Source of the DNA: an uncultured virus (IMG/VR IMGVR_UViG_3300003962_000201)
Taxonomy: Duplodnaviria; Heunggongvirae; Uroviricota; Caudoviricetes
IMG/VR virus record: IMGVR_UViG_3300003962_000201
DNA length: 64,000 nt
Direction: 5' to 3' (one strand)
This document shows positions 538 through 46,656 of the stretch, one piece after another. Positions within the stretch are counted from its first letter, which is position 1, and every line of letters begins with the position of its first letter. The position numbers and the translations under genes were made by a program. Below the pieces are notes generated by a model, which was given only the letters and a program-made list of their open reading frames with translations, did not search any database and was not told where the DNA came from.

Positions 538-759
538 TTAAACAGGTTGCGAAACCATTTTAAATTCCTTTATGCTATTCAACGAAAGCGCCGTGCCGGT
601 CAGGCCCCACGACCACGTCCAAACCCGCTCGGCGTAGCGGCCTATGCAAAAACCTTTTCTTCTATCATAAACGGAAGCATCTTTCAAAAAGACATCTTTC
701 CAAAAATGAATAATCAAAGTATCCAGTGAAAAAAGCGATAGAGTTTTCATTTTTTTCAT
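538..759 (-). CDS. Microprotein, C-terminal-helix family member (…LSLNSIKEFKMV-SQPV); paralogue of 764..991
   Basis: ATG at 759 (or 750). Shares FWK, RRxGFxIG, VWTW and FKMV with the neighbouring ORF. Confidence 0.7.
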   Translation of the reverse strand: MKKMKTLSLFSLDTLIIHFWKDVFLKDASVYDRRKGFCIGRYAERVWTWSWGLTGTALSLNSIKEFKMVSQPV

Positions 760-763
760 ATTT

Positions 764-991
764 TTATAAAACCATTTTAAATTGTTTAACAATCTCTTTC
801 TCGATTGGCACCCCGCCGGCTATGCCGCGACCCTTCGAAACCCACGTCCAAACCATCCTTGGGAAAATTCCAACAAGGCCTATGGAAAAGCCGCGCCTGA
901 TGTCTCCAACTCCAGGAAGGGTAACGCTCTTCCAAAAAGATAAAACCAAAATCGTCGATGACCTATCAACATAAAGTTTTAAAAATTTCAT
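764..991 (-). CDS. Microprotein, C-terminal-helix family member (…IEKEIVKQFKMVL)
   Basis: 75-aa ORF, ATGA overlap with the upstream gene, paralogous to 538..759. Confidence 0.75.
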   Translation of the reverse strand: MKFLKLYVDRSSTILVLSFWKSVTLPGVGDIRRGFSIGLVGIFPRMVWTWVSKGRGIAGGVPIEKEIVKQFKMVL

Positions 992-1371
992 CTTTTCCTT
1001 CTTCTTTTCTTTCGCTCCGAAACCATCTTAAAAAGAAAAACATCGCTTTGCGAAAATGTCGCAACCTTCAATAATGAATTAAGACTAAAATGGTGAACAA
1101 ACCCGCAATGGTTTTCAATAATAAGAGAGCGAGTTAAGAAGAATTTGCTAAATGGCTGGCAATGCCATTTAAATTGCTTCGCCAAGACAACATGAACAAC
1201 GCCATAACGTCGCTTAGTTTGATTTTGATAAAGATGAAACCTCATCATTCTTCCCCATCCCGCGCCGCCTTCGGCGAATTTTTTTGGCCATTTAAGATGA
1301 AGGCTAAAATCATTTTTCTTGTTATCAATCGAGAAAGATAAAAATCCATAAAACCTCTTCTCTTTCTTCAT
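988..1371 (-). CDS. Hypothetical protein; probable family member (…FSQSDVFLFKMV plus basic tail); true start may be 1248
   Basis: ORF track. Internal ATGATG at 1248 is preceded by a purine-rich GGATGGGGAAGA. Confidence 0.55.
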   Translation of the reverse strand: MKKEKRFYGFLSFSIDNKKNDFSLHLKWPKKFAEGGAGWGRMMRFHLYQNQTKRRYGVVHVVLAKQFKWHCQPFSKFFLTRSLIIENHCGFVHHFSLNSLLKVATFSQSDVFLFKMVSERKKRRRKR

Positions 1372-1386
1372 AAAAGATGAAATACA

Positions 1387-1755
1387 TTATTGACACCTTT
1401 CAAAATCAACACGTTCGCTGTAGTACCCGTTTGAAACGCCAAGCCAAGAAATTGTAACATAACCTTTTTGCGTTGCCAATTTATAAAAAGTCCAAGTCTG
1501 GCTTTCGATTGGAACTTCATTTGGAAGCAAGGCATCGGAGGTCGCTTCTTCTGCCATTAGAATTGGAGACCCAACCAAATCTTGCAAATCTCCATCAAGA
1601 GATTTGATTTCAACACATTCGCAACAATCTTGATGATGGAACATTCTGTATTTTTCCCCGGTATCTGTTTCAAAGACGATTTCCTCATCTCCATTCCGAG
1701 AGACATTTGTCAAAGTTTTTCCTAATAATTGTTGTATTTCCATTTTAGTTCCCAT
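1387..1755 (-). CDS. Conserved phage hypothetical protein (HxQDCCExV…WTFYKLAT…SNGYYS family)
   Basis: Recognisable motif pattern of a widespread phage small-protein family. Confidence 0.85.
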   Translation of the reverse strand: MGTKMEIQQLLGKTLTNVSRNGDEEIVFETDTGEKYRMFHHQDCCECVEIKSLDGDLQDLVGSPILMAEEATSDALLPNEVPIESQTWTFYKLATQKGYVTISWLGVSNGYYSERVDFERCQ

Positions 1756-2116
1756 TTTTTTCTATGTACTCCGCAATTTTACGATGTTCTTCCGCTGTTC
1801 CAAAACTCTTTATGGTATTTGCTTTATTTGAAATAATCTTAACATTTCCTTTAACATAACCTTTTTCTGGAACAATTCTATCCAAACTTGGCGAATTATT
1901 GCTCGGTTTTTTATCGCCAAAAAATAAATCAATTTCAAGAATAGGGCATTTTTCTGGAATTTCTAAATCATTTTTTTTAAGATTAAAAGGAATTCCTTTT
2001 TTCAAAGCTCTTCGACGAGCGCCTCTTAAAAGTTTTATAATTTTTCCGTTTATGGTTGAATTGTATTTTTTTCTGGCTTTTTTTATGTCTTCCTTTCTTT
2101 TTTCGCTTATTTCCAT
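1745..2116 (-). CDS. Phage HNH-like endonuclease
   Basis: CPIL…SPSLDRIxPxKGYVKGNVxIISxKAN motif. Confidence 0.8.
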   Translation of the reverse strand: MEISEKRKEDIKKARKKYNSTINGKIIKLLRGARRRALKKGIPFNLKKNDLEIPEKCPILEIDLFFGDKKPSNNSPSLDRIVPEKGYVKGNVKIISNKANTIKSFGTAEEHRKIAEYIEKNGN

Positions 2117-2322
2117 TCGCGGATTTTAACAGGTTTGTCAAACTCTATCAAGAACATTTTGATGCAACTTTTTGGAACCTTGCCCAAGTCAGGTCTTATT
2201 TCATTATAATCCCAAATTCTTTTATTTTTTGCCGCCCAGCCCGCAGAAAGGTATCCAAGCGCAACATTACAATGAAGAGCAATTATGTAACAAAACAGAA
2301 AATCTCTATTAAAATAAATCAT
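2107..2322 (-). CDS. Microprotein, possible divergent family member (…VPKSCIKMFLIE…)
   Basis: 71 aa, TAATG overlap with the upstream ORF. Confidence 0.6.
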   Translation of the reverse strand: MIYFNRDFLFCYIIALHCNVALGYLSAGWAAKNKRIWDYNEIRPDLGKVPKSCIKMFLIEFDKPVKIREWK

Positions 2323-2549
2323 TATAATTCCTTAAAAATTTTAACAAATTTTTTATTGAAAACTCTATCCAAAGTTATGTCGGTTGATAAAGCATTTGAA
2401 AATCCAAAATCAAAATCTTTGTATTGGAAGAGCTCTCTTGTCAAATTAATTGAAAAAAAATTTCTTTTGCTAAATGATGGATAAATCGTTTTTTTGTGAA
2501 AATCGTAAAAAATGATTGTGCCCGAAGAAAAAAGAAAAGTTACTTTCAT
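2322..2549 (-). CDS. Microprotein, C-terminal-helix family member (…FNKKFVKIFKEL)
   Basis: 75 aa, Phe-rich, overlaps at both ends. Confidence 0.75.
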   Translation of the reverse strand: MKVTFLFSSGTIIFYDFHKKTIYPSFSKRNFFSINLTRELFQYKDFDFGFSNALSTDITLDRVFNKKFVKIFKEL

Positions 2550-2716
2550 CTCTCTTCCTCGGCCAAAGATTTTTGTTTAACAAATTCTCTCTCCATCATC
2601 TCGAACGAAGGGCATTTGATAACTTCCTGAATTACTTTTTCATCCCCGTCAACCGATTGAACAACAACGCGGTACTCTCTATCATTATCATAAAAACAAT
2701 AAATGTATTTCTTCAT
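2546..2716 (-). CDS. Hypothetical 56-aa protein (not in ORF track)
   Basis: Manual translation MKKYIYCFYDNDREYRVVVQSVDG…SLAEEER*. ATGA overlaps with both neighbours. Confidence 0.7.
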   Translation of the reverse strand: MKKYIYCFYDNDREYRVVVQSVDGDEKVIQEVIKCPSFEMMEREFVKQKSLAEEER

Positions 2717-3522
2717 AAGACCTTCTTTAAGTTTGAATACAAGACATCGGCATCATTATCACTTAATCCCGACATTTGTCCATCGTTGAGTTCAACCATT
2801 ATCCAGGAATTATCCTCTTTTTGGGCAACATCAATAACATAAAATTTAGCATTATCTCCAATTTTTTGAATAATTTGCTTAACAAACTCATCATCGGGTT
2901 CTTCAATTTTTTGTCCGGCTTCTTTAATGTCTTCCATGTGCGACGACCAATAAAAACCTTTTGAAATAATTTGATTATTTGCGACAAAGAACCTCCATTC
3001 ATTTGAAATTGGAATTCCGTTGATTTCTTCTAGGTCAAATTTCTTTAACTTTTCGTATTTCCTGAAATAGATTTCTTGGGTTCCTATAAAGCTATCATCC
3101 AAAAGCCTTTCAAAAACTTTTGAAAGTTCCACTTTGTCTTTGGCAAACATGTGCGTTTTCCAGAGAAACTTTCGCGAATTTGTTTGCCCTTTAAGAACAA
3201 AAGGCCCATTTTCTCCAATCGGAATGTCTTCAGCGCGAAACCAAGTTTTAAATGTTTCGTGCTCCAAGTCTTCGTACCAATTTTTTATGTCGGCGATGTA
3301 TCCATGCTCTTTATACGAGTTTATAAGCCCGCTTCCAGCATTTTTCAAATCATTTTCCAGCTCTTTATAATAAGGGAGAACAGAGTATCTTCCAATTATA
3401 ATGTCGTTTGGTTTTGCGTCTGTTCTTTGGGAAATAACATCAAAGTATTTTGAAGCAATTTTTTTTTCTTCTTCCTCTTCTTTCCATCCGGAAGAGCGAA
3501 ATAGAATTTTGTAATTTTTCAT
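2713..3522 (-). CDS. ATP-grasp domain protein (R2K/DUF4343-like)
   Basis: PFVLKG, EWRFFV, YVIDVA, VELNDGQMSG motifs. Confidence 0.8.
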   Translation of the reverse strand: MKNYKILFRSSGWKEEEEEKKIASKYFDVISQRTDAKPNDIIIGRYSVLPYYKELENDLKNAGSGLINSYKEHGYIADIKNWYEDLEHETFKTWFRAEDIPIGENGPFVLKGQTNSRKFLWKTHMFAKDKVELSKVFERLLDDSFIGTQEIYFRKYEKLKKFDLEEINGIPISNEWRFFVANNQIISKGFYWSSHMEDIKEAGQKIEEPDDEFVKQIIQKIGDNAKFYVIDVAQKEDNSWIMVELNDGQMSGLSDNDADVLYSNLKKVL

Positions 3523-4337: not shown

Positions 4338-4544
4338 ATGAATTTATTTCTTTATCCATCTTATGTTCTTTTGCTTTATCAAAAAATTTATTCTTTTATA
4401 AAGAATGATAAATTAAATGATTGTTTGGTTTTTTCTCCGGAAACAAATGATTTTCTATTTTTTTATCAAGTTTATACCGGAAAAAAAGAAGATTTAGAAA
4501 TAACAAAACAAAACATTAGAAATTTCCTAATTACAAACAAATGA
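4338..4544 (+). CDS. Microprotein, possible divergent family member (…ITKQNIRNFLITNK)
   Basis: ATG 4338 within the track ORF; ATGA overlap with 4541. Confidence 0.5.
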   Translation: MNLFLYPSYVLLLYQKIYSFIKNDKLNDCLVFSPETNDFLFFYQVYTGKKEDLEITKQNIRNFLITNK

Positions 4545-10736: not shown

Positions 10737-10748
10737 TATTTATTAAAA

Positions 10749-11954: not shown

Positions 11955-11963
11955 TTAAAAAAA

Positions 11964-13163: not shown

Positions 13164-13176
13164 TTAATTATTGTAA

Positions 13177-24718: not shown

Positions 24719-26730
24719 TGAAAAAAGTATTAATTCAAGCGCCTTTATTGAGCGTTTCTGGCTACGGAATTCACGCTCGGTTTGTTTTGCGATCTCTTTT
24801 AAAATACCCAGAACTTTTTGATGTTTATGTTAAGAACACCAAGTGGGGTTCAACAGGACAATTATTTGAAGACACCGCCGAACGTCAAGAAATTGATAAT
24901 CTTATTGGAAAAACTTTTCAATTCATTCAGCAAAATCCGCAAGCAAAATTTGACATCTTTGTTCAGGTTGCCATTCCAAATGAGTTCGAAAGGCTTGGCG
25001 ATTATTGCATAGGCGTAACCGCAGGCGTTGAAACAACCAAGATTTCTATGGAGTGGGGCCAAGGAATTATGAAGATGGACAAGGTTATTGTTCCGTCTGA
25101 ATTTTCCAAATTTGCTTTTGAGAATACCCTTTTCAAGGCGTTAAATCAACAGACAAACCAAGAAATTGAATTTAATGTCGCTTCCATGAAGCCTTTTGAG
25201 GTGGTTCATTATCCTTTGCAAAATGTTGAACCAAAAGTTCCAGACATCAAATTTGACCACGATTTCAATTTCTTGGTTGTCGCTCAAAATTGTTTTAGAA
25301 AGAACACGGCTCAAACCATTAAGGAGTTTATTGAAGAATTTTACGACCAGCCTGTTGGAATGGTTCTTAAAATGAACACCGCTTCCAATTCTTTGATGGA
25401 TTTTAATCACACCAAGAATGGTTTGATGGAATTAATTCATCAATACGAAGGGCGAAAGTGTTCCATTCATCTTCTTCATGGCGATTTAACCGATGAAGAA
25501 ATGGTGGGGTTGTACAATCATCCTCAAATTAAATGCCTTATCAATCTCGCCCACGGCGAAGGATTTGGGTTGCCTCTTTTTGAAGCCTCCGGCGCAGGCC
25601 TTCCAATTTTAACAATAAATTGGGGAGGGCAAAAGGATTTCTTGTCGGTTCCAAACAAAAAAGGAAAAATGGAGCCGATGGCGACATTTGTTTCTCATGA
25701 GGTTAAGCCGGTTCAAAAAGAAGCGGTCTGGGATAGGATTATTATTCCAGAAAGCGAATGGGCTTATCCGGCATCTTGGGATTATAAAGTCAAGATGCGA
25801 AGCGTTTATAAGGCTTATGGCGAGAAAAAAGCCATGGCGAAGAAATTGGCGGAATACAATAAAGAAAAGTTTGGTGGACAGACGCAATACAAAAAGATGG
25901 CGGAAGCAATTTTAGGAGAACCCGTATTTGATTACAAAGATGTTGATGTTGCTTCTCTTCCAAAGATTTCCGTGGTAACGTCTGTCTTCAAGGCAAGAGA
26001 GTACATCGAAGAGTTCTTAAAGGATGTCGAAAGACAAACAATTTTTAAGGAAAAAGTAGAATTAATTCTCGTGGACCCAGGTTCACCGGAACAAGAAGAG
26101 GAAGTGATAAAGGTTTGGGTTGAGAAGTACCCAGACAACATAAAATACATTAAGTTGGAACAAGACCCTGGGTTGTATGCTTGCTGGAATAAAGCCATTC
26201 AGGCATCAACCGGGGATTTTGTAACCAACTGGAATTGCGACGACCGAAGAGCCCCAGATGCTTTGGAAAAGATGGCGAAACAGTTGGTTTCTAATCCGGG
26301 TGTTGAGATGGTTTATTTTGATTATCTTATGACCAATAAACCAAATGAAACCTTTGAGGTCAATTCCTCAAATGGACGAAGATACAACATGGATCAATTC
26401 TCAAAAGAGGCGCTCTTGCGAATGAACCTTCCGCACTGTGGCCCGATGTGGAGAAAAACCGCGCACAACCGAATTGGTTATTTTAATGAAGATTACAAAT
26501 CGGCAAGCGACTGGGAATGGAACTTGCGTTTGGCGTTCTCTGGGGGTACTATGAAGAAGATGGCTGAACCTTTGGGATTGTATTATTTCTCACCTCGCGG
26601 TGTTTCAACAGACCCCAAAAATAATTCTTGGAAGCGAAAAGAAGAACGAGAGATTTTTAATCGGTTTAGCGAAATGCTTAAAAAAGAAAAAGAACCAGTT
26701 GAAAATGTTGCGGAAAACTTGGTGATTTGA
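24718..26730 (+). CDS. GT4 + GT2 fusion glycosyltransferase
   Basis: SGYG…GEGFGLPLFEA, then KISVVTSVFK…LILVD…NWNCDD…SDWEWNLR. Confidence 0.9.
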   Translation: MKKVLIQAPLLSVSGYGIHARFVLRSLLKYPELFDVYVKNTKWGSTGQLFEDTAERQEIDNLIGKTFQFIQQNPQAKFDIFVQVAIPNEFERLGDYCIGVTAGVETTKISMEWGQGIMKMDKVIVPSEFSKFAFENTLFKALNQQTNQEIEFNVASMKPFEVVHYPLQNVEPKVPDIKFDHDFNFLVVAQNCFRKNTAQTIKEFIEEFYDQPVGMVLKMNTASNSLMDFNHTKNGLMELIHQYEGRKCSIHLLHGDLTDEEMVGLYNHPQIKCLINLAHGEGFGLPLFEASGAGLPILTINWGGQKDFLSVPNKKGKMEPMATFVSHEVKPVQKEAVWDRIIIPESEWAYPASWDYKVKMRSVYKAYGEKKAMAKKLAEYNKEKFGGQTQYKKMAEAILGEPVFDYKDVDVASLPKISVVTSVFKAREYIEEFLKDVERQTIFKEKVELILVDPGSPEQEEEVIKVWVEKYPDNIKYIKLEQDPGLYACWNKAIQASTGDFVTNWNCDDRRAPDALEKMAKQLVSNPGVEMVYFDYLMTNKPNETFEVNSSNGRRYNMDQFSKEALLRMNLPHCGPMWRKTAHNRIGYFNEDYKSASDWEWNLRLAFSGGTMKKMAEPLGLYYFSPRGVSTDPKNNSWKRKEEREIFNRFSEMLKKEKEPVENVAENLVI

Positions 26731-26957
26731 TGATTTGGGGAAATTTAGGTGTAATTTGTTTGTTTGGTTTTAATAAAACTTTTTTTGTACTGAATAACTC
26801 AGGAAATGATAACTTTTTTTCTTTTCAAGATAAAAATGAAATGTTCCCTTGTGAAGACAAGTACGGATTTTTTAGTGAATTTAGTAATGAATATTTTTAT
26901 AAATCATTATCAATAAGAACTCCAAAATCATTTATCAAGGTGTTTAAATTATTATGA
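26727..26957 (+). CDS. Microprotein, C-terminal-helix family (…TPKSFIKVFKLL)
   Basis: Overlaps both flanking GT genes. Confidence 0.75.
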   Translation: MMIWGNLGVICLFGFNKTFFVLNNSGNDNFFSFQDKNEMFPCEDKYGFFSEFSNEYFYKSLSIRTPKSFIKVFKLL

Positions 26958-28653: not shown

Positions 28654-29537
28654 ACCAAAAAGATTTATTCAGCAAATTCGCACCTTTTCGGGAGCCTCCT
28701 AAATGGCCAACGTATCCCCCATACGCAACCGAATACCTTGAAGAGTTCTTTCTAAACAAATTTGAAAAAGAAATGCCGGAAACCAAAAGAAAATTTATTC
28801 CGGTTGCGTGGTCGTCGTGTTACATCAACCATAATGATAGACCTCTCCAAGCGCTCCAGGATGCTCTTAAATCGCTTCCGCAAGACGAGGCATACTTTGC
28901 CGTGGCCACCCATGATGACGCGGTTAGAGAGGCTCTCCCGAAGAATACGATGGTCTTTTCGGCTGGGGGCAATAAAGGCGATGTTCCAATTCCTCTGGTT
29001 TGTTCTTCAATTCCGGAAAACAAAATTCCAAAGAAAGAAAAGGACATTTTTTGTTCTTTTGTCGGTTCTTTGACACACCCGATAAGAAACGAGATGGTCT
29101 CCTCTTTAAAAGATAATCCAAAGTTTTTCTTAAAGGCTGGAAATTGGAGCAACTCGGTCTCCAAAGAAAAAGAAGAGGATTTTTTGAGCGTCATGGCGAG
29201 AAGCAAGTTCTCGCTGTGTCCTCGAGGTTACGGGCCCACTTCGTATCGACTTTATGAAGCCATGCAGGTCGGCTCTGTTCCTGTCTATGTTTACGACCGA
29301 GAGTGGCTTCCTTGGCAGGATGAAATAGATTGGAGCGAATGTATCATAACAATTCACCAATCCCAAGTTGGAATTATTGATTTAATGCTTGAAGCAATTG
29401 ACGAAGAAGAAATTCAAAAGAAAATTGAAAATTGTAAAAAGATTTATAAGTCTTGCTTGACTTTTGATAAGACTTTTGATAGGATTTTATCAAGCTTGAA
29501 AGATGAAGAAAAGCTTAAAGAAGTCTTAAAATTATGA
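28650..29537 (+). CDS. Exostosin-family (GT47) glycosyltransferase
   Basis: SKFSLCPRGYGPTSYRLYEAMQVGSVPVYV…LPW…IDW. Confidence 0.85.
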   Translation: MNQKDLFSKFAPFREPPKWPTYPPYATEYLEEFFLNKFEKEMPETKRKFIPVAWSSCYINHNDRPLQALQDALKSLPQDEAYFAVATHDDAVREALPKNTMVFSAGGNKGDVPIPLVCSSIPENKIPKKEKDIFCSFVGSLTHPIRNEMVSSLKDNPKFFLKAGNWSNSVSKEKEEDFLSVMARSKFSLCPRGYGPTSYRLYEAMQVGSVPVYVYDREWLPWQDEIDWSECIITIHQSQVGIIDLMLEAIDEEEIQKKIENCKKIYKSCLTFDKTFDRILSSLKDEEKLKEVLKL

Positions 29538-29782
29538 AATTGGGAATTTCAAAGTATTTCGGAGACCCTCGCGGAAATGGATTTTCCGTGAATTTTAGAG
29601 CAATTTTTGGATTGCCACGAGAGAGAGTTTTTACAGATGAAATCTTATTTTCATCAAGAGAAAGCGCCAAAAAAAGAGTTGAAATAAAATTAATAGAGTT
29701 TTTTGATTTCTTTGATGACGCCTGTTATTATGGTGATGTTCCTATTTCTAAAAAATTGATTAAAAATTTTAAACTTTTATGA
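29534..29782 (+). CDS. Microprotein, C-terminal-helix family (…ISKKLIKNFKLL)
   Basis: ATGA-coupled; motif present. Confidence 0.75.
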   Translation: MKLGISKYFGDPRGNGFSVNFRAIFGLPRERVFTDEILFSSRESAKKRVEIKLIEFFDFFDDACYYGDVPISKKLIKNFKLL

Positions 29783-29991
29783 AAATCATTCATTATTTTG
29801 GCACTCCTTCGTTTTATCTTACGATTTACTCCCGCTGTCATAAATCAAAATACGGCTATTCAATTTATCGTTTGTTTGAGTGCGGAAGAAGTCTCTGTTT
29901 GTTTGAGTGCGGAAGAAGTCTCTTTATCAAAGAAGCTATTATTGGATTTTACAGCATCAAAGAAACAATAAACTTGTTTAAGGTTTTATGA
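29779..29991 (+). CDS. Microprotein, C-terminal-helix family (…SIKETINLFKVL)
   Basis: ATGA-coupled; motif present; internal 27-nt duplication. Confidence 0.75.
   Translation: MKIIHYFGTPSFYLTIYSRCHKSKYGYSIYRLFECGRSLCLFECGRSLFIKEAIIGFYSIKETINLFKVL
29870..29923 (+). repeat. Perfect in-frame 27-nt tandem duplication
   Basis: gtttgtttgagtgcggaagaagtctct x2. Confidence 0.95.
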
Positions 29992-30185
29992 ATTTTTATC
30001 ATTTTTATAATGAAACAGGTTTTTGCTTTCAATGTCTTTATAGAATAAGAAATGACATTTGGACCAGTCTTTTTTGGATTTTTCTTGGAAGAGATTACCT
30101 ACCCACAAATGAGTCTGCTTATAGTTCCCAGATGGTTTCTTTATCCAAAAAAAGAATTAAATTAATTAAGGTTTTAGAAAGATGA
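29988..30185 (+). CDS. Microprotein, C-terminal-helix family (…LSKKRIKLIKVL-ER)
   Basis: ATGA-coupled; motif variant. Confidence 0.7.
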   Translation: MNFYHFYNETGFCFQCLYRIRNDIWTSLFWIFLGRDYLPTNESAYSSQMVSLSKKRIKLIKVLER

Positions 30186-30406: not shown

Positions 30407-30411
30407 AAATT

Positions 30412-30624
30412 ATGAAATACAAACATTTTTATGACCTCGGGCGTTCTTTAACAATCCGCGAAATTCTTCGAGAAATTGGTTGCGACTTTAAGCAATTAAA
30501 AGAAGAAGATTTAGATAAGATTGAAGTTCGTACAAGTTCCGGTATAGAGCCTTGGACTTACGAAAAATACGAAACACTTACGATTGAATGTCCAGAAGAA
30601 TTGATTGAAAAATGGAAAAAATAA
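30412..30624 (+). CDS. Small hypothetical protein
   Basis: ORF track. Confidence 0.65.
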   Translation: MKYKHFYDLGRSLTIREILREIGCDFKQLKEEDLDKIEVRTSSGIEPWTYEKYETLTIECPEELIEKWKK

Positions 30625-30625
30625 A

Positions 30626-31899: not shown

Positions 31900-32116
31900 A
31901 GAATTTACCGAATTTCTAAAAAATTTCGGAGAGCAAAGCAAGCAAAACTCATCTCTTTCAACTGGAGAAACCGACAAATTTGTTGGAGCCTATTATCTTT
32001 TTTATTTCGGTTGTTTAATCTTTATGTATCAAACTTTCGGTCTTGCGATGATGCTTCTTTTTATAATAGGCATCTTCTTTATGAATTTATCTTTTATTAT
32101 AGGAAACGGTAAATGA
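31889..32116 (+). CDS. Small membrane protein
   Basis: Two hydrophobic segments in the C-terminal half. Confidence 0.7.
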   Translation: MKLKEFTEFLKNFGEQSKQNSSLSTGETDKFVGAYYLFYFGCLIFMYQTFGLAMMLLFIIGIFFMNLSFIIGNGK

Positions 32117-32310
32117 AGCTTAAATTTAAATTAAGACAGAAAACTCCTGTTTTTTTAAGCATGTATCGAAGAGCTGAACAAAGGTATGGTATTCCTTTGA
32201 TGTATTCTTGGTGTTCTTTGGGAGATTTAGTTGAGCTTTCTAAAAAGAAACATAAAGAGTTCTGGTGTGTAACTTCGCGCAAGCAAATCAAGATGTTTAA
32301 AATATTATGA
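32113..32310 (+). CDS. Microprotein, C-terminal-helix family (…TSRKQIKMFKIL)
   Basis: ATGA-coupled; motif present. Confidence 0.75.
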   Translation: MKLKFKLRQKTPVFLSMYRRAEQRYGIPLMYSWCSLGDLVELSKKKHKEFWCVTSRKQIKMFKIL

Positions 32311-32486
32311 AATCTAAATTAATCATAAATCATTATCATTTTTTCTTTTCAAGATTTTCATTCTGGCTCAGGGCTTATTATTTTGATGCTTATTCTATAG
32401 GTTCTTTACTTTTATGCGAAACTCTTGATGTCGGGGAAACCATTTCGCTTCAAATTCAATCAATAAAATTGTTTAAAATATTATGA
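32307..32486 (+). CDS. Microprotein, C-terminal-helix family (…LQIQSIKLFKIL); 59 aa, not in ORF track
   Basis: Manual translation MKSKLIINHYHFFFSRFSFWLRAYYFD…; ATGA overlaps at both ends. Confidence 0.75.
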   Translation: MKSKLIINHYHFFFSRFSFWLRAYYFDAYSIGSLLLCETLDVGETISLQIQSIKLFKIL

Positions 32487-32734
32487 AAAAACCTAAAAAA
32501 AGATTTCAAGAATGCTCCGCTTTGGAGAAAATTTGGAGATACAAAGCATACCTTTTAATCCCATTTGACGCCCTCCAAATCTATTTGATGCAATTTACGC
32601 AAGTTGCCGAAGAAGACTATGAATTTATGGGATTTAAGTTTTGCTGGTCCATCGCTCGCGGAAGCGCAGATTTGAGAATGGAATACTGGTACACCATGGA
32701 CGAGGTTAGAGAGGTTTTAAAAGAAAAATTATGA
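32483..32734 (+). CDS. Hypothetical protein
   Basis: ORF track; ATGA-coupled. Confidence 0.75.
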   Translation: MKKPKKRFQECSALEKIWRYKAYLLIPFDALQIYLMQFTQVAEEDYEFMGFKFCWSIARGSADLRMEYWYTMDEVREVLKEKL

Positions 32735-32952
32735 AATCTTTATTTGTTTGTAAGTATAGGCGTGGTTATTGCGATTATGTATTTTATTTTGATTGCCCAA
32801 TTATTAGTTATAGTGGGCGCCATAAAATGCCGGATAATACTGAGTTTATGCTGCATGGGTATTTTAGAGAAACTTTCTATTCTTTTAAGTTCAAAAAAAA
32901 CTTTTCCGTAATATTTTCCATTTTTAATGTTAAATTATTCAAGACATTATGA
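32731..32952 (+). CDS. Microprotein, C-terminal-helix family (…FSIFNVKLFKTL)
   Basis: ATGA-coupled; motif present. Confidence 0.75.
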   Translation: MKSLFVCKYRRGYCDYVFYFDCPIISYSGRHKMPDNTEFMLHGYFRETFYSFKFKKNFSVIFSIFNVKLFKTL

Positions 32953-33155
32953 AAAAAATTAATTTTTATTTGTGGTATGGTAATCTTTGTTTTTATGGAA
33001 TTCACATAAAACCACGGCATTTTCATACAATTTTTTGTGGAGATGTGTTTCATAATTCTAATAATTTTGAGATTAAAATTTTGTATCCTTTTTCCCACTC
33101 ACAACTATCAAGAAGACAATCTATCCCAACGGTAAAACTGTTCAAGGCTCTATGA
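32949..33155 (+). CDS. Microprotein, C-terminal-helix family (…QSIPTVKLFKAL)
   Basis: ATGA-coupled; motif present. Confidence 0.75.
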   Translation: MKKINFYLWYGNLCFYGIHIKPRHFHTIFCGDVFHNSNNFEIKILYPFSHSQLSRRQSIPTVKLFKAL

Positions 33156-35182: not shown

Positions 35183-35185
35183 TTT

Positions 35186-35815: not shown

Positions 35816-35926
35816 GAATGCACTATTTCTTTTCTTGGATACGAAAAACTATTCTATTTACAATAAACTATTTATGATTTTTTCATAAATTAAAGATGAA
35901 ATAGAAAATCAAGGAGAGAAAGAAAA

Positions 35927-36901: not shown

Positions 36902-36926
36902 TCTGGTGTATAATGCATTAATTTCG

Positions 36927-41097: not shown

Positions 41098-41594
41098 AAA
41101 TAAATGAATTACAGCAAGAATTATCCAAAATAACAGATTTACAATTAAAAAAACTTGATTGGTTGGTTCATAAATACGAGAAAGTTATTATTTTAGGAAA
41201 TGGTGGTTCTTCCGCTATTGCTGGACACATAAGTCAAGATTGGACCAAGAATTTGAAAAAGAATTGTTTAACATTTGAAGGTCATTCTAGATTAACTTGT
41301 TATGCGAATGATTACGGTTGGGAAAAGGCTTATGAACAATTTGTAAAAGAATTCGCAGACCAGCAAACCCTTGTTATTTTAATTTCCTCTTCGGGAGAAA
41401 GCAAGAATATTTTTAATTGCGCTTGTTATTGCGAGGTTTCTAACATTCCTTTTATAACTTTATCGGGGTTTGATAGAGATAATCTATTAACAAGAACATT
41501 CAGGAATACCTCTCTTCTTGACTTCCACGTGGATTCGAGAGATTATGGCGTTGTCGAACTGACACATGAAGCTTTTCTTCATTCGTTATGTTAA
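41094..41594 (+). CDS. gmhA: SIS-domain phosphoheptose isomerase
   Basis: GNGGSSAIAGH; TCYANDYG; ISSSGESKN; YGVVE..H. Confidence 0.85.
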   Translation: MKINELQQELSKITDLQLKKLDWLVHKYEKVIILGNGGSSAIAGHISQDWTKNLKKNCLTFEGHSRLTCYANDYGWEKAYEQFVKEFADQQTLVILISSSGESKNIFNCACYCEVSNIPFITLSGFDRDNLLTRTFRNTSLLDFHVDSRDYGVVELTHEAFLHSLC

Positions 41595-41824
41595 ATTATA
41601 GAAATTTAACTTTATTTTGGAGAATTCTCTTTTTTGAGACTTATAATAAATGGTTTAAAAAGTTCGCGATTTTGTCTATAGATAATAGCATAAATAATGA
41701 TTATTCCTATGATCAAATCATTTCGGTTGATTTTTATTTTAAAGATGACGGCCTTATGGGATCTTTTCCAAATCGTGAAACATTTTTCTCAAAATTATTA
41801 ATTCGTCTGTTTAAAACATTATGA
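41588..41824 (+). CDS. Microprotein, C-terminal-helix family (…FSKLLIRLFKTL)
   Basis: Overlaps gmhA; motif present. Confidence 0.75.
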   Translation: MLNYRNLTLFWRILFFETYNKWFKKFAILSIDNSINNDYSYDQIISVDFYFKDDGLMGSFPNRETFFSKLLIRLFKTL

Positions 41825-42024
41825 AAAGTTTATTTTATAATCACTATTATCACGTTTTAATGTATCCAGTTCTTAATAAATTTTTAAAAAAACATAAGAA
41901 ATTTGCGGGCCGATTAATGGCTATTGGTCTTTATTTTTGTAATTCTAACTTTTATGATAGTGTTGCTGATTTAAATTCTTTTCGTATTAATTTATCTTTA
42001 ATAAAAATTTTTAGGATGCTATGA
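41821..42024 (+). CDS. Microprotein, C-terminal-helix family (…INLSLIKIFRML)
   Basis: ATGA-coupled; motif present. Confidence 0.75.
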   Translation: MKSLFYNHYYHVLMYPVLNKFLKKHKKFAGRLMAIGLYFCNSNFYDSVADLNSFRINLSLIKIFRML

Positions 42025-43668: not shown

Positions 43669-43683
43669 TCCGGATGGTATTAT
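43655..43683 (+). promoter_or_regulatory. Sigma70-type promoter heading the microprotein array
   Basis: TTGACT-17-TATTAT with extended TG, 9 nt before GTG 43693. Confidence 0.7.
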
Positions 43684-43692
43684 TCTTTCATC

Positions 43693-43869
43693 GTGAAAAT
43701 TGGAAAAGTTGGTGATAATTGGCTTTATTATCAATTCTACATTCTTCCTTATTCGTCTTGTGATTGGATTTTTTTTGATGAAAGAGCACATTTTTTTATG
43801 CATAAAATGCAAGGATGTGGTAATCTTGAATTTTCTTTAAAATTCGTTAAATTATTTAAGGCATTATGA
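43693..43869 (+). CDS. Microprotein, C-terminal-helix family (…FSLKFVKLFKAL); 58 aa, not in ORF track
   Basis: Manual translation from GTG: MKIGKVGDNWLYYQFYILPY…. Confidence 0.7.
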   Translation: MKIGKVGDNWLYYQFYILPYSSCDWIFFDERAHFFMHKMQGCGNLEFSLKFVKLFKAL

Positions 43870-44072
43870 AATTCCATTTCTTTTATGATTCAACTTATGA
43901 TTTGTATGATTTCGCAGTCTATTCTTACAAAAAAAGAAGAAGATTTTATAACGCTTATGCTTTTAGCACTGGATTTAGAGGCGATTTTGATTCTTGCGAC
44001 TTGCAAAAAAAAATTCTTTATAAAAATTATAAACTTTCCAAAAAATCAATAAGGATTTTCAAATGCTTGTGA
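43866..44072 (+). CDS. Microprotein array member (…LSKKSIRIFKCL)
   Basis: Motif present; overlapping junctions. Confidence 0.78.
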   Translation: MKFHFFYDSTYDLYDFAVYSYKKRRRFYNAYAFSTGFRGDFDSCDLQKKILYKNYKLSKKSIRIFKCL

Positions 44073-44275
44073 AATTTTTATCCGGCGGGAAATATCAAAC
44101 TTCTTTTGAGTTTTCTATTTTTATGATTTATAAGGCACTTTTTGATGGTGATTGTGCAAGCATAGCTTATTTCTCAGAGGAGTATGAAAAAGAATTTGAG
44201 ATTATGTATTTTTATACCACCAACCCTCTCAAATCTTATGATGTGCGCATCTTAAAGGTTTTCAAATGCTTGTGA
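44063..44275 (+). CDS. Microprotein array member (MLVKF…YDVRILKVFKCL)
   Basis: Motif present; starts inside the repeat. Confidence 0.78.
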   Translation: MLVKFLSGGKYQTSFEFSIFMIYKALFDGDCASIAYFSEEYEKEFEIMYFYTTNPLKSYDVRILKVFKCL

Positions 44276-44481
44276 AATTTTTTGTTGATGCTAGTCTTCA
44301 CGAAGACGATTTTATGTTTGATTTTACAATCTTGCATTTTAAGTTGAGAAATTACATCGCAAATTGTTTCTCTGTGGAGCTTCACCCTTTTCCAGAGTAT
44401 ACAGGGTTTTATGAATCCAGTTATCCGGGATACTTAAAAAGTTATTGTCTTTCTAACATAAAGGTTTTCAAATGCGTTTAA
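44266..44481 (+). CDS. Microprotein array member (MLVKF…YCLSNIKVFKCV)
   Basis: Motif present; starts inside the repeat. Confidence 0.78.
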   Translation: MLVKFFVDASLHEDDFMFDFTILHFKLRNYIANCFSVELHPFPEYTGFYESSYPGYLKSYCLSNIKVFKCV

Positions 44482-44702
44482 AATTTATTGTTCTTAAAGA
44501 AGTTCCCAAAGAACATCTTATTGAATTCTCGATTTTTAGTCGGATTAGAAAAGGAATCTATCGTGAAGACAATTATTTTAGAAATCTTATAAGTATTGAC
44601 CCGACCGATTTTTATAGTATTGATTATTTTCTCTTTATTACAGGCCGGGCCGCAAGAGCTTATGATTTACTTTCATTGATGAGGATTTTCAAATGCTTGT
44701 GA
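44472..44702 (+). CDS. Microprotein array member (MRLKF…DLLSLMRIFKCL)
   Basis: Motif present; starts inside the repeat. Confidence 0.78.
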   Translation: MRLKFIVLKEVPKEHLIEFSIFSRIRKGIYREDNYFRNLISIDPTDFYSIDYFLFITGRAARAYDLLSLMRIFKCL

Positions 44703-44929
44703 AATTTCTTGTAATAAAAAATTTAGAAAACATAAAAAACGGTTTAACTTTTTATTTTGAATTTTGTGTTTTTAAATCGTTTAATAAGCACACAAGTTTT
44801 GATTTTATGAGTTTAAGGCTTCGCGGAGGCCCTTTCTCTGAAATTGTTATATTTTCACCCGATCCAGTTACGCTCAGTTTTTTCAGCAAATGCGATTTAT
44901 CATTAATAAGGATTTACAAATGTTTATGA
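44693..44929 (+). CDS. Microprotein array member (MLVKF…CDLSLIRIYKCL)
   Basis: Motif present; starts inside the repeat. Confidence 0.78.
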   Translation: MLVKFLVIKNLENIKNGLTFYFEFCVFKSFNKHTSFDFMSLRLRGGPFSEIVIFSPDPVTLSFFSKCDLSLIRIYKCL

Positions 44930-45867
44930 ATTACTCTTCAAATCAAATTTTAGTCACCGGCGGAGATGGAATGGTCGGGCACGCATTGAAAAAAATAATT
45001 CCAAACGCTTTTTTTGCTTCATCAAAACATTATGATTTAACTTACGAAAACGAGACATTAAAAATGTTTCGCGACGCAAAACCAAAGTTTGTTATTCATC
45101 TCGCCGCAAAAGTTGGAGGAGTTCTATCAAATTCTAAAAACCAAGCCAATTATTTTGAGGACAACATAAGAATTAATACAAATGTTTTAAGATACGCAAA
45201 AGAGTTTAAAGTTGAGAAGATGGTTTCCCTTTTATCAACTTGCATTTACCCTGAAAACGCCACATTCCCTTTAACTGAAGACCAAATTCACAATGGCCCT
45301 CCTCACCCGACCAATTATGGTTATGCTTACGCGAAGAGAATGCTCGAGGTTCAATCGCGAGCCTACCGAGAGCAACATGGATGCAACTTCATCTGCGCGG
45401 TTCCTAACAACCTTTTCGGCCCTAACGATAATTTTCATTCGGAGAACTCGCATGTTATTCCGGCAATTATTCGCAAATGCTTTGAGGCAAAAAAGAATAA
45501 TCAAATTCCGGAATTTTGGGGAACCGCAAGGCCAATAAGAGAATTTACCTATTCTTATGATGTCGCCAAGATTTTGCTTTTCCTTTTGGAAAGGTATAAC
45601 GACGCCGAACCGATAAACATCGGCAACAACGAGCAATTCTCTATTGAAGAAATTATTCAGGCGACCATGAAGTTTATGGAATTTGAGAAAATGTATTTTG
45701 CTCTGGATTCGTCAAAGCCGGACGGGATTTTCAAGAAGCCTTCAAGCAACCAGAAACTTCTTGACTTGGGGTGGAAAAAGTGGGATTATACCCCATTATC
45801 ATTTGGGTTGTACGAAACAATAATGTGGTTTGAGAAAAATTATCCAAAAGTGCGAGGTTTATCATGA
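44920..45867 (+). CDS. fcl: GDP-L-fucose synthase
   Basis: TGGDGMVG; HLAAKVGG; LSTCIYP; YAYAKR; PNNLFGPNDNF; SHVIPA. Confidence 0.92.
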   Translation: MFMNYSSNQILVTGGDGMVGHALKKIIPNAFFASSKHYDLTYENETLKMFRDAKPKFVIHLAAKVGGVLSNSKNQANYFEDNIRINTNVLRYAKEFKVEKMVSLLSTCIYPENATFPLTEDQIHNGPPHPTNYGYAYAKRMLEVQSRAYREQHGCNFICAVPNNLFGPNDNFHSENSHVIPAIIRKCFEAKKNNQIPEFWGTARPIREFTYSYDVAKILLFLLERYNDAEPINIGNNEQFSIEEIIQATMKFMEFEKMYFALDSSKPDGIFKKPSSNQKLLDLGWKKWDYTPLSFGLYETIMWFEKNYPKVRGLS

Positions 45868-46391
45868 AAAATTGTTTAGAAAATTTAAAAAACAAAAAAA
45901 TTAAAGTTCTTTCGGCGAATGCTAATGGGACTATGACCATTCAAATCGTTGAGCAGAGCGATAAAAAACAAAACATTAAAGATGCTCTTAAATCACTTGA
46001 AGGTGAAAAAAGAGAGATTTTATCTCTTATAAAATACCAAGAACAAAATAAAAATTATTTGATAAAAGATAGCAAAGAGCAAGAGAAATACCATAAAGGT
46101 GAGCTTTTGGGCATCATAGAGCTCTGCGAGGAAGATCTAAAAGTAGTAAAAATAAATGCCGAAGAAGAGATTAAGCTCATCAAAAAGAGACTAAAAAACG
46201 AGAACTTTATGATCAAGAAGCGATTGAAAGAGACCAAACAAGAATTAAGTTCGGTTCCAAAAATTACCGCCGAAGAACTTCAAAAGAGTTTAAAATTGAA
46301 TGATAAAAAGATTGCGAAATTAAAGAAAGATTTACAAAAAACTTTATCAAAGATTGAACAAACTCAAGAAAAACTCAAAAAAATGAAATAG
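45864..46391 (+). CDS. Coiled-coil hypothetical protein
   Basis: K/E/L-rich ORF. Confidence 0.7.
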   Translation: MKNCLENLKNKKIKVLSANANGTMTIQIVEQSDKKQNIKDALKSLEGEKREILSLIKYQEQNKNYLIKDSKEQEKYHKGELLGIIELCEEDLKVVKINAEEEIKLIKKRLKNENFMIKKRLKETKQELSSVPKITAEELQKSLKLNDKKIAKLKKDLQKTLSKIEQTQEKLKKMK

Positions 46392-46395
46392 ATTT

Positions 46396-46656
46396 ATGGA
46401 AACTCTTATCAAATGTATCTTTGACCCCAAAACAAAAAGTTCCTATTTTTTTGATGTTAGTATTTTTAAGATTTTTACAAAAACGCCAAACACTAAAGAA
46501 AAATTGGTTATTTTATGCGCAACTTTTGACATTGGAGACGGCAATATTTTTGAATTTGATGATTTTGAATGTTTTAATTTTGAACTTCACGGAAACGAAA
46601 AGTTTATTAGTCCGTCTCTTTCTCAAATCAAACTTTTTAAGGAACTCTCAAAATGA
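46396..46656 (+). CDS. Microprotein, C-terminal-helix family (…PSLSQIKLFKEL-SK)
   Basis: Motif present; FDVSIF resembles the array members' FEFSIF. Confidence 0.72.
   Translation: METLIKCIFDPKTKSSYFFDVSIFKIFTKTPNTKEKLVILCATFDIGDGNIFEFDDFECFNFELHGNEKFISPSLSQIKLFKELSK

What the first reader, a model, noticed from the sequence alone, without database searches (positions are those of the whole stretch)
538..46656. Dispersed family of about 20 hypervariable microproteins sharing one C-terminal helix
Seen: ORFs of 58-86 aa, F/Y-rich and mostly unalignable in their bodies, end in hydrophobic-[S/N/D]-x3-[I/V]-[K/R]-x-F-K-x-L-stop. Members by start coordinate: 26727 IKVFKLL, 29534 IKNFKLL, 29779 INLFKVL, 29988 IKLIKVL, 32113 IKMFKIL, 32307 IKLFKIL, 32731 VKLFKTL, 32949 VKLFKAL, 41588 IRLFKTL, 41821 IKIFRML, 43693 VKLFKAL, 43866 IRIFKCL, 44063 LKVFKCL, 44266 IKVFKCV, 44472 MRIFKCL, 44693 IRIYKCL, 46396 IKLFKEL. 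Minus-strand members: 2549 VKIFKEL, 991 VKQFKMVL, 759 IKEFKMV, 1371 VFLFKMV. Weaker candidates: 2322, 4338, 30182. The motif codons vary synonymously (TTT/TTC, AAA/AAG, TTA/CTA/TTG, ATT/ATC/ATA), and a helix N-cap residue recurs 11 residues from the end, so the constraint appears to act on the protein. Inference: a constant docking or targeting helix carries variable payloads, a C-terminal counterpart of the N-terminal capsid-targeting sequence on T4 internal proteins. It could also be a common adaptor or membrane anchor for an arsenal of anti-defence or host-takeover effectors. I do not recognise this as a described family.
Basis: partly seen in the sequence, partly recalled or inferred. Interest (0 to 1): 0.88.

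Follow-up and report, generated by a model that had tools for sequence, protein, structure and literature searches.

The report
Tail-sharing microgenes colonising a phage operon
An uncultured wastewater phage has slipped about twenty tiny, fast-changing genes between the genes of an otherwise conserved sugar-making operon, and all of them end in the same short positively charged peptide, whose codons also help start the next gene; what the peptide binds is still unknown.

Summary
Twenty ORFs of 58-86 codons end in [IVLM]-[KR]-h-[FY]-[KR]-x-[LV], 15 of them right at the stop codon, against 0.56 expected in shuffles. The same pattern occurs in 1 of 2556 ORFs of 43 related phage loci.

Conservation in the tail follows the codon period, and 50 gene starts not preceded by a member show no such upstream signal. 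The constraint therefore acts on the peptide. A second layer is nucleotide-level: 11 of 16 following starts have an SD-like tetramer inside the tail, and AAG-then-G is enriched there.

Bodies are barely related once the tail is removed. A profile search of 1.84 billion proteins returned only this contig's own genes.

The sugar operon is conserved in many aquatic phage contigs, where the enzyme genes abut. All 17 plus-strand members sit at six of those junctions. Strain variants show a 182-nt gain bounded by a 36-nt repeat of one tail, bodies that do not align between kept ends, an in-frame indel and a compensated frameshift.

Best reading: a lineage-specific family of translated, self-coupling microgene cassettes with a shared peptide tail. 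The partner of the tail is unknown, and "helix" is not established.

The parts
26727..26957 (+). member (76 aa from TTG at 26727; an ATG at 26730 overlaps the upstream stop as TGATG), tail IKVFKLL, between the GT2/GT1 gene and g26954
29534..29782 (+). member (82 aa), tail IKNFKLL, first of three between the GT47-like gene and g30605
29779..29991 (+). member (70 aa), tail INLFKVL; its last 36 nt (29957-29992) are repeated around a 182-nt gain in run X3
29988..30185 (+). member (65 aa), tail IKLIKVL followed by ER
32113..32310 (+). member (65 aa), tail IKMFKIL
32307..32486 (+). member (59 aa), tail IKLFKIL
32731..32952 (+). member (73 aa), tail VKLFKTL; in strain variants its body carries 15 listed substitutions and a compensated +1/-1 indel pair
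32949..33155 (+). member (68 aa), tail VKLFKAL; a contig of an RNA library covers 32929-33074
41588..41824 (+). member (78 aa), tail IRLFKTL (Arg spelled CGT), between g41094 (SIS-like) and g42021
41821..42024 (+). member (67 aa), tail IKIFRML; in-frame 6-nt deletion in its body in X3 and X12
43693..43869 (+). member (58 aa, GTG start), tail VKLFKAL, first of six between two epimerase genes
43866..44072 (+). member (68 aa), tail IRIFKCL
44063..44275 (+). member (70 aa), tail LKVFKCL; full-length similarity to the next three members
44266..44481 (+). member (71 aa), tail IKVFKCV
44472..44702 (+). member (76 aa), tail MRIFKCL; X3 has M to I at the first motif position
44693..44929 (+). member (78 aa), tail IRIYKCL
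46396..46656 (+). member (86 aa), tail IKLFKEL followed by SK
2322..2549 (-). member (75 aa), tail VKIFKEL; 30% identical over 70 aa to the member at 26727
764..991 (-). member (75 aa), tail VKQFKMV followed by L
538..759 (-). member (73 aa), tail IKEFKMV followed by SQPV; 38% identical to the member at 991
988..1371 (-). probable member with a C-terminal extension (127 aa; LFKMVS lies 11 residues before the stop)
   Evidence: not found by the HMM
4338..4544 (+). possible degenerate member (68 aa, tail IRNFLITNK, ATGA overlap with the next gene)
   Evidence: HMM 5.6 bits, E 9.3

Best explanation
These are real, translated genes. They form a lineage-specific, rapidly turning-over family of about 20 microproteins in an uncultured wastewater myovirus-like phage.

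Each gene is a self-contained, translationally coupled cassette. It starts on the stop codon of the gene before it. It ends in an 11-residue cationic tail, often S-x3-[IV]-[KR]-h-F-K-x-L. The last codons of that tail also hold the start codon of the next gene and, in most cases, an SD-like AAGG or AGGA.

A cassette built this way can be duplicated or inserted at a gene junction without breaking the operon. That is how the family came to occupy six junctions of a conserved sugar-biosynthesis operon, plus a second region on the other strand.

Shown here: the family exists and is confined to this contig lineage in every collection searched; the tail is conserved at the peptide level; the bodies are nearly free to vary; the genes are insertions relative to related phages; strain variants gain or replace units at the tail.

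Inferred: the tail is a common interaction element that brings many different small bodies to one partner or surface. My preferred guess is the cytoplasmic face of the membrane or a membrane-associated phage or host protein, because the tail is short, C-terminal, net positive and moderately amphipathic. The partner is unknown.
For: - Open frames: 0 stops in frame 0 of 20 ORFs against 88-170 in the other five frames. The ORFs tile exactly. Of the 17 starts that follow a plus-strand member, 12 overlap it by 4 nt and 4 by 10 nt. One is uncertain: the listed start gives a 40-nt overlap, but in-frame ATGs would give 10 or 4.
- Motif enrichment: 15 strict cores lie directly before a stop against 0.56 in shuffles. 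The regex matches 1 of 2556 ORFs in 43 related loci.
- Peptide-level constraint. Information per codon position is I 0.74/1.40/0.11, K 1.36/0.78/0.52, h 0.03/1.03/0.41, F 1.11/1.17/0.77, K 1.32/1.08/0.73, L 0.54/1.64/0.41 bits. The hydrophobic position keeps only its second-base T, and one Arg is spelled CGT.
- The 50 gene starts not preceded by a member carry at most 0.31 bit at any upstream position and are A-rich, not T-rich.
- Dual coding: an SD-like tetramer lies at -20..-4 in 11 of 16 starts after members, 23 of 50 other starts and 17% of random positions. AAG is followed by G in 9 of 11 tail Lys codons against 49 of 271 in large genes (Fisher p 1.5e-5), and AAA is followed by G in 0 of 21.
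- Insertion: homologues of the flanking enzymes (40-60% identity) abut in L003, L004, L014-L018, L026, L035 and L036. In the window, 1, 3, 4, 2, 6 and 1 members lie between them.
- Turnover in strains: X3 carries 146 new letters plus a repeat of 29957-29992. The total of 182 nt is 2 mod 3, like the three periods worked out (245, 209 and 194 nt). Runs X3 and X12 share a 6-nt in-frame deletion. Runs X1 and X3 share a +1/-1 pair 7 nt apart.
- DNA similarity among members is confined to tails and starts.
- All 20 tails have net charge +1 to +5, and their mean hydrophobic moment is 0.46 against 0.34 +/- 0.17 for the C-termini of 637 large ORFs.
Against: - No expression or protein data exist. The only RNA-library contigs cover 9 of 30 bins, and the tool warns that DNA can be present in such libraries.
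- Both structure models are of low confidence and disagree on the tail: helix, strand.
- The amphipathic moment is only moderately raised; 23% of ordinary C-termini reach the member mean.
- The bodies have an odd, T-rich, Phe/Tyr-rich composition with a weakened coding signature: G at codon position 1 is 0.20 against 0.295 in large genes.
- Among the 40 of 568 strain differences that the tool showed, one member body has 9 non-synonymous to 6 synonymous changes, against 6 to 16 in two enzymes. That fits weak constraint or none.
- A -4 indel in the body of the member at 29779 in X3 has no visible compensation among the 12 of 29 indels shown.
- No partner was identified. The complex predictor was unavailable.
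Confidence: 0.55

Rival explanations
1. Translated spacers, or selfish junction cassettes. The units spread by recombination at gene junctions and must stay open only because a stop would uncouple translation of the downstream enzyme. The protein bodies have no function. The tail is kept for a cis role at the joint: efficient termination-reinitiation, possibly through the nascent peptide, together with the SD-like site and the start codon.
For: - The bodies are barely related without the tail and have drifted to a T-rich composition with a weak coding signature.
- One body shows 9 non-synonymous to 6 synonymous differences and a compensated frameshift. That pattern keeps the frame rather than the sequence.
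- The members sit only at junctions of coupled operons.
- The motif keeps register with the stop in 15 of 20 members.
- The tail is dual-coded with AAGG.
- Unit gain is bounded by the tail repeat.
Against: - Related phages couple the same enzyme genes directly, with no spacers, so there is no need for them.
- 5 of 16 tails carry no SD-like tetramer yet keep the peptide motif.
- In 4 members the motif is 1-5 residues away from the stop.
- Tandem members keep 25-38% identity over their full length, and a loose N-terminal pattern recurs.
- I know of no example of a bacterial nascent peptide that promotes reinitiation (own knowledge, not searched).
Confidence: 0.25
2. Pure nucleotide constraint. 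The apparent peptide motif is only the reading, in the upstream frame, of an RBS-plus-ATGA start region or another DNA or RNA signal.
For: - The final Leu codon plus TGA spells TTATGA, which contains the next start.
- Several large enzymes that overlap the next gene by ATGA end in loosely similar K/L-rich tails: KEVLKL, KVFEA, YKEFK.
- AAG-then-G is enriched in the tails.
Against: - The 50 starts not preceded by members carry at most 0.31 bit at any upstream position and are A-rich where the motif is T-rich.
- Third codon positions are the least conserved, and the hydrophobic position keeps only its second base.
- K/R and I/V/L/M exchanges use unrelated codons.
- In the 43866-44693 sub-family the listed next start is an ATG 6 nt further upstream, yet the peptide keeps its register with the stop.
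- Promoter-like sites are not enriched: 54 against 58 +/- 7.2 in shuffles.
Confidence: 0.05
3. Packaged or injected effectors. The tail is a C-terminal counterpart of the T4 capsid-targeting sequence and loads diverse small proteins into the virion.
For: - One constant short peptide sits on many variable small proteins.
- The window is from a tailed phage with baseplate-like genes.
Against: - The motif is C-terminal, not N-terminal.
- There is no conserved acidic residue or recognisable protease site in the tail.
- The genes are co-transcribed with sugar enzymes. They do not form a head-gene module.
- No capsid or protease gene lies in the window to test against.
Confidence: 0.1

Closest known systems
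PeSL (promoter-early stem-loop) cassettes in hyperplastic regions of T4-type phages (Arbiol et al. 2010, PMC2839356; Comeau et al. 2014, PMC4122927; abstracts and outlines read)
   Same: A short conserved element recurs at the boundaries of small ORFan genes with no known homologues. Related phages differ by insertion, deletion and replacement of whole genes at that element.
   Different: A PeSL is an intergenic promoter plus terminator. Here there is no intergenic DNA (overlaps of 4 or 10 nt), and promoter-like sites are not enriched. The repeated element is coding and is conserved as a peptide.
Translational coupling by termination-reinitiation at ATGA or TGATG overlaps with an intragenic SD (Huber et al. 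2019, PMC6728339; abstract read)
   Same: Stop-start overlaps occur at nearly every member, with an SD-like tetramer inside the last codons of the upstream gene.
   Different: Coupling is a general mode of gene packing. It does not explain a 7-11-residue peptide motif shared by 20 otherwise dissimilar genes, nor the 5 of 16 tails that lack an SD-like site.
Morons of tailed phages (Cumby, Davidson and Maxwell 2012, 'The moron comes of age', PMC3594210; abstract start seen in the listing)
   Same: Extra genes are inserted between genes that are adjacent in related phages.
   Different: Morons are independent transcription units. These genes have no room for a promoter or terminator of their own and depend on the operon.
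Capsid-targeting sequence of T4 internal proteins (IPI, IPII, IPIII, Alt); recalled, no paper read here
   Same: One short constant peptide on several otherwise unrelated small proteins.
   Different: It is N-terminal and cleaved by the prohead protease. Here the peptide is C-terminal, with no conserved acidic residue and no evidence of packaging.
C-terminal membrane-targeting amphipathic helices of MinD and FtsA (search listing only; the motif pattern is recalled)
   Same: Position at the extreme C-terminus, a length of about 8-12 residues, and a mix of Lys/Arg with Phe/Leu/Ile.
   Different: The hydrophobic moment is only moderately raised, the helix is not established, and there is no homology.
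Lineage-specific expansions of small proteins in large phages, for example about 35 zinc ribbons in Bacillus phage G (Iyer et al. 2021, PMC7824862; passages read)
   Same: One phage lineage multiplies a tiny protein module tens of times.
   Different: That expansion keeps a recognisable fold. Here only the tail is kept, and the copies are scattered through an enzyme operon.

Membership tests
PeSL cassettes (T4-type hyperplastic regions) | Intergenic sigma-70-like early promoter followed by a stem-loop terminator between the small genes | tested here: not met
   Members overlap their neighbours by 4 or 10 nt. Promoter-like sites number 54 against 58 +/- 7.2 in shuffles, and terminator-like sites 25 against 16.8 +/- 4.5, with no link to the joints.
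PeSL cassettes (T4-type hyperplastic regions) | Indels and replacements between close relatives are bounded by the repeated element | tested here: met
   X3 shows a 182-nt gain bounded by a 36-nt repeat of the tail of the member at 29779. The bodies at 26771-26912 (X3) and 41748-42001 (X1) do not align while their ends do. The tool's listing was truncated.
Morons | Gene inserted between two genes that are adjacent in related phages | tested here: met
   Six junctions are involved: g24667|g26954, g28650|g30605, g30605|g33152, g41094|g42021, g42745|g44890 and g44890|g46841. They abut in L003, L004, L014-L018, L026, L035 and L036.
Morons | Independent transcription unit with its own promoter and terminator | tested here: not met
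   There is no intergenic space and no enrichment of promoter-like sites.
T4-type internal proteins with a capsid-targeting sequence | Targeting peptide at the N-terminus, removed by the prohead protease at a Leu/Ile-x-Glu site (definition recalled) | tested here: not met
   The shared peptide is C-terminal, and no Glu is conserved in or next to it.
T4-type internal proteins with a capsid-targeting sequence | Protein present inside the virion | not testable with these tools
   This needs virion mass spectrometry.
MinD/FtsA-type C-terminal membrane-targeting sequence | Short cationic amphipathic helix at the extreme C-terminus | tested here: inconclusive
   The tail is at the extreme end in 15 of 20 members. 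Net charge is +1 to +5. Mean hydrophobic moment is 0.46 against 0.34 +/- 0.17 in the background, and 23% of the background reaches that value. The models give a helix in one member and a strand in the other, with pLDDT 52.7 and 56.7.
MinD/FtsA-type C-terminal membrane-targeting sequence | Binds the membrane | not testable with these tools
   This needs tail-GFP localisation or liposome binding.
Termination-reinitiation coupled gene pairs | Stop-start overlap (ATGA, TGATG or TAATG) with the downstream gene | tested here: met
   12 of the 17 starts after plus-strand members overlap by 4 nt, 4 by 10 nt (or by 4 if GTG is used), and 1 is uncertain. On the minus strand, 2549 overlaps 2322 by 1 nt, and 1371 overlaps 991 by 4 nt.
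Termination-reinitiation coupled gene pairs | SD-like motif inside the end of the upstream gene | tested here: met
   Found at 11 of 16 starts after members, against 17% of random positions. AAG is followed by G in 9 of 11 tail codons against 49 of 271 elsewhere.
Any described protein family (Pfam, PHROGs) | Significant profile match | tested here: not met
   Of 23 small ORFs, none matches Pfam below E 0.05 and none matches PHROGs below E 0.006. The family profile found only 8 of the window's own proteins and one 1611-aa protein among 1.84 billion.

The most novel reading that the evidence does not exclude
The cassettes are junction-hopping selfish elements of translationally coupled operons. 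Each is a minimal gene whose only selected parts are an open frame and a C-terminal peptide-plus-joint, and that joint hands the ribosome on to the next gene. The conserved tail then acts in cis, as a nascent peptide or as the joint itself. It would not be an address on a finished protein. This would be a new class of mobile coding element, and one that earlier notes of this scan suggest recurs with different tails in many uncultured large phages.
Probability: 0.15. Interest if true: 0.8.

Novelty: new variant of a known kind. Interest (0 to 1): 0.5.

Why it matters
Small phage genes are the least understood part of phage genomes. This case shows three things:
- about twenty of them are kept open in frame;
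- one short peptide on them is under selection;
- whole units come and go at a joint that also starts the next gene.

That gives a concrete, testable model for how phages add new small genes inside essential operons without breaking them. It also offers a 7-11-residue peptide as bait to find the common partner. If the same architecture, with other tails, is as common in uncultured large phages as earlier unchecked notes of this scan suggest, it may be a general way in which phage gene novelty is generated and tried out.

Tried and rejected
Searches for relatives that found nothing useful:
- The window's own genome is not held.
- blastn of 41000-47000 against 50,697 phage records: no match.
- The search for related loci with member P0002: no relative in viral contigs.
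- Word-indexed search of 5.8 billion proteins with the family profile: only two of the window's own proteins.
- A 48-nt stretch from the window's end: no match in viral contigs. The contig was also not among the 30 metagenome loci. The 12 kb of the 76,464-bp contig outside the window could therefore not be read.

Structure:
- Two AlphaFold2 jobs gave pLDDT 52.7 and 56.7. That is too low for a fold search, so none was run.
- The ESM Atlas holds one member (its own pLDDT 0.43) and gave no usable feature hit.
- Complex prediction (four copies of one member) was not available, so self-association of the tails is untested.

Origin of the bodies:
- blastn and blastp of members against the window's and the relatives' large genes found no credible match. 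The best hits are 18-55-residue stretches at E 0.002 or worse. The idea that members arose by duplication of enzyme gene ends has no support.

RNA library:
- Run X20 covers 9 of 30 bins, including 32929-33074, which lies in one member. The tool warns that DNA can be present in such libraries, so I do not count this as evidence of expression. I draw nothing from the uncovered parts.

Selection in strain variants:
- Only 40 of 568 substitutions and 12 of 29 indels were listed. The synonymous and non-synonymous counts are a biased sample and are used only as a hint.

Other:
- An antisense promoter reading of the tail was considered and dropped, because promoter-like sites are not enriched.
Its question was answered.

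Literature:
- Searches found no description of tail-sharing microgene families in phages. That covers only the held library.

Full report
**Setting.** The window is AT-rich, 27-45% G+C in 2-kb steps, and phage-like.
- It holds a PIN-PhoH gene with intein and homing-endonuclease domains, an HNH endonuclease, a VanY-type peptidase, baseplate-wedge-like proteins and three tRNA genes.
- From about 23 to 48 kb it carries one long plus-strand operon of glycosyltransferases (GT1, GT2, GT47-like), four NAD-dependent epimerase/dehydratases, a GHMP kinase, a SIS-like protein, a cytidylyltransferase-HAD protein and methyltransferases.
- No whole genome is held. The protein database records the source contig as 76,464 bp.
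- Near-identical DNA occurs in wastewater, bioreactor and sludge metagenome runs. Twenty listed runs from 10 studies hold some of it, and 9 runs hold half of the sampled words or more.

- A C-terminal regex hits 17 of 186 plus-strand and 3 of 211 minus-strand ORFs of 40 aa or more. One minus hit is a chance ORF at 55933, and the member at 759 escapes the regex because 4 residues follow its motif.
- The strict core [IVLM][KR]x[FY][KR]x[LV] occurs 22 times in six frames. Fifteen hits lie directly before a stop and 4 within five residues of it. Block shuffles give 7.5 +/- 2.7 hits and 0.56 directly before a stop, with a maximum of 3 in 100 shuffles.
- In 43 loci of related phages (582 kb, 24-48% G+C in the eight loci tabulated) the regex hits 1 of 2556 ORFs. 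It is therefore not a by-product of AT-rich ORF ends.
- The 20 ORFs have no stop in frame, against 88-170 stops in each of the other five frames. They tile exactly onto their neighbours.

- The ORF at 1371 carries the motif internally, and the family profile does not recognise it.
- Candidates 2322 and 30182 are not supported.
- 4338 is a plus-strand ORF with a degenerate tail and an insignificant score.

- Anchored on the motif, information content follows the codon period, and third positions are the lowest. The residue between K and F keeps only its second-base T, spelled with eight different codons. K/R and I/V/L/M exchanges use unrelated codons, including one CGT.
- Fifty gene starts in the window that are not preceded by a member carry at most 0.31 bit at any upstream position. 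They are A-rich where the motif is T-rich. No general start signal could therefore produce the motif.
- In the 43866-44693 sub-family the listed next start is an ATG 6 nt further upstream, yet the peptide keeps its register with the stop.

The constraint is therefore on the peptide.

A second, nucleotide-level layer is also real.
- The last Leu codon plus TGA contains the next ATG.
- 11 of 16 starts that follow a member have an SD-like tetramer at -20..-4, against 23 of 50 other starts and 17% of random positions.
- At the two Lys positions, AAG is followed by G in 9 of 11 cases, against 49 of 271 in large genes (p 1.5e-5). AAA is never followed by G, in 0 of 21 cases.

The tail is dual-coded. 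Five tails have no SD-like site and keep the peptide all the same.

**What the proteins look like.**
- None of 23 small ORFs has a credible Pfam or PHROGs match.
- A profile of the 20 members, run against 1.84 billion representative proteins, returned nine hits. Eight are the window's own genes, and one is a 1611-aa protein matched over 35 residues. A word-indexed search of 5.8 billion proteins returned two self-hits.
- Within the family, some pairs are related over their full length: 44063/44266/44472/44693, 759/991, and 2549/26727.
- Leave-one-out profiles place 8 of 20 members first and 15 of 20 in the top four of 1670 ORFs. With the last 12 residues removed, only 3 of 20 reach the top five.
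- A loose N-terminal pattern of short hydrophobic strands recurs.
- Members are rich in Phe (12.6%), Tyr and Ser and poor in Glu and Ala. Their coding signature is weak but in the correct frame.
- Two AlphaFold2 models are of low confidence, pLDDT 52.7 and 56.7. They agree on N-terminal strands and disagree on the tail, which is a helix in one and a strand in the other. 'Shared C-terminal helix' is therefore an inference.
- The tails are all net positive (+1 to +5) and moderately amphipathic if helical: 0.46 against 0.34 +/- 0.17.

**Where they sit.** The sugar operon is conserved at 40-60% amino-acid identity in many aquatic phage contigs, one of them 640 kb long. There the enzyme genes abut or overlap, and small ORFs are almost absent. 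In the window, all 17 plus-strand members lie at six such junctions:

| Junction | Members |
|---|---|
| g24667 / g26954 | 1 |
| g28650 / g30605 | 3 |
| g30605 / g33152 | 4 |
| g41094 / g42021 | 2 |
| g42745 / g44890 | 6 |
| g44890 / g46841 | 1 |

Other lineage-specific small ORFs without the tail share these gaps. The three or four minus-strand members lie in a different region, next to an R2K ATP-grasp gene and a DUF7448 gene. The family is thus a set of insertions, both tandem and dispersed.

**Turnover in strains.** Contigs of three DNA runs were laid on 26700-46699.
- In X3 the contig runs to 29992, adds 146 unmatched letters and then resumes at 29957. That is a 182-nt gain bounded by a 36-nt repeat of the last 11 codons and stop/start of the member at 29779. 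182 is 2 mod 3, as are the three periods I worked out from the coordinates (245, 209 and 194 nt), so it fits an extra gene of about 61 codons.
- The body of the member at 26727 (26771-26912) does not align in X3, while its first and last codons do. The stretch 41748-42001 does not align in X1.
- X3 and X12 share an in-frame 6-nt deletion in the member at 41821.
- X1 and X3 share a +1/-1 indel pair 7 nt apart in the member at 32731, which restores the frame.
- A -4 indel in the member at 29779 in X3 has no visible partner among the indels shown.
- Of the 40 substitutions shown out of 568, two enzymes have 16 synonymous to 6 non-synonymous changes. The body of 32731 has 6 to 9, none of them in its tail. 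The single change in a tail turns M into the consensus I.

This sample is truncated and biased, so it only suggests relaxed constraint on bodies.
- DNA similarity among members inside the window is confined to tails (17-28 nt, 86-100% identity) and, in one sub-family, to starts.

**Interpretation.** What is shown is a contig-lineage-specific family of about 20 open, tiling microgenes with four properties:
- a peptide-level conserved, cationic C-terminal tail;
- a tail that is dual-coded with the next gene's translation signals;
- insertion at junctions of a conserved operon;
- turnover as whole units at the tail.

I infer that they are translated accessory proteins whose tail is a common interaction element, perhaps directed to the membrane. 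I also infer that the self-coupling joint is what lets them multiply inside operons.

The strongest rival is that the proteins do not matter. In that case the units would be selfish translated spacers, whose frame and joint are all that selection sees. The weak body constraint and the compensated frameshift fit that rival. The peptide-level pattern in tails without an SD-like site, and the retained full-length similarity of tandem copies, fit it less well. A purely nucleotide explanation is largely excluded. Capsid targeting has no support beyond analogy.

**Comparison with what is known.** The case resembles four known things without being any of them.
- PeSL-bounded ORFan cassettes of T4-type phages (PMC2839356, PMC4122927): it lacks the promoter-terminator element.
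- Morons (PMC3594210): it lacks its own transcription signals.
- Ordinary ATGA coupling (PMC6728339): it adds a family-wide peptide.
- Lineage-specific expansions in large phages (PMC7824862): it does not keep a fold.

Four literature searches found no description of such tail-sharing families.

Earlier, unchecked notes of this scan report analogous arrays with other tails in other uncultured phages. I did not test them. They lower the surprise of this single case and raise the interest of the class.

Noticed in passing
window 36906-37913: This gene has three DUF4379 treble-clef domains plus a restriction-endonuclease-like C-terminus. It sits between g35927 and g37910, which abut in L016 and L017. 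In runs X1 and X3 the stretch 36916-37757 (842 nt) is absent, with 7 other letters in its place. It looks like a mobile endonuclease insertion that is polymorphic in the population.
   Followed up: partly
window 17755-21447: A 1230-aa PIN-PhoH protein is interrupted by intein-splicing, LAGLIDADG and HINT domains, apparently two inteins.
   Followed up: no
window 9516-14409: Four tandem genes of 399-410 aa lie here. The two that were scanned have no Pfam or PHROGs match. Each is preceded by a similar T/A-rich leader and starts ATGCC or ATGCG. This is a second lineage-specific expansion.
   Followed up: no
window 1-540: A G+C-rich stretch, unlike the rest of the window, with no Rfam family at gathering score. 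The member at 759 ends at its edge.
   Followed up: no
window 27784-28653, 30412-30624, 31384-32116, 32483-32734, 45864-46391, 46653-46844: Further small or medium ORFs in the same junction gaps have no tail motif, no Pfam match and no homologue in the 43 related loci. The operon has taken up other lineage-specific genes too. By contrast, 34874-35182 is a thioredoxin.
   Followed up: partly
window 40108-42755: A GHMP kinase, a SIS-like protein and a cytidylyltransferase-HAD protein lie in a row. They look like a heptose-type nucleotide-sugar pathway, conserved in aquatic phage contigs including one of 640 kb (L001).
   Followed up: no
window 2713-3522 (minus strand): An R2K-clade ATP-grasp gene lies one small ORF away from the member at 2549. 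From memory, enzymes of this clade add amino acids to protein C-termini. I found no evidence of a link to the tail.
   Followed up: no
window 43655-43683: The best plus-strand promoter-like site near the family (TTGACT, 17 nt, TATTAT, preceded by TG) lies in the 24-nt gap just before the six-member array. It is a consensus match only.
   Followed up: no
window 32449-32482: In run X3, contigs match only this 34-nt tail of the member at 32307 and run on unlike it on either side. They may come from members elsewhere in the genome or in other strains (table 7).
   Followed up: no
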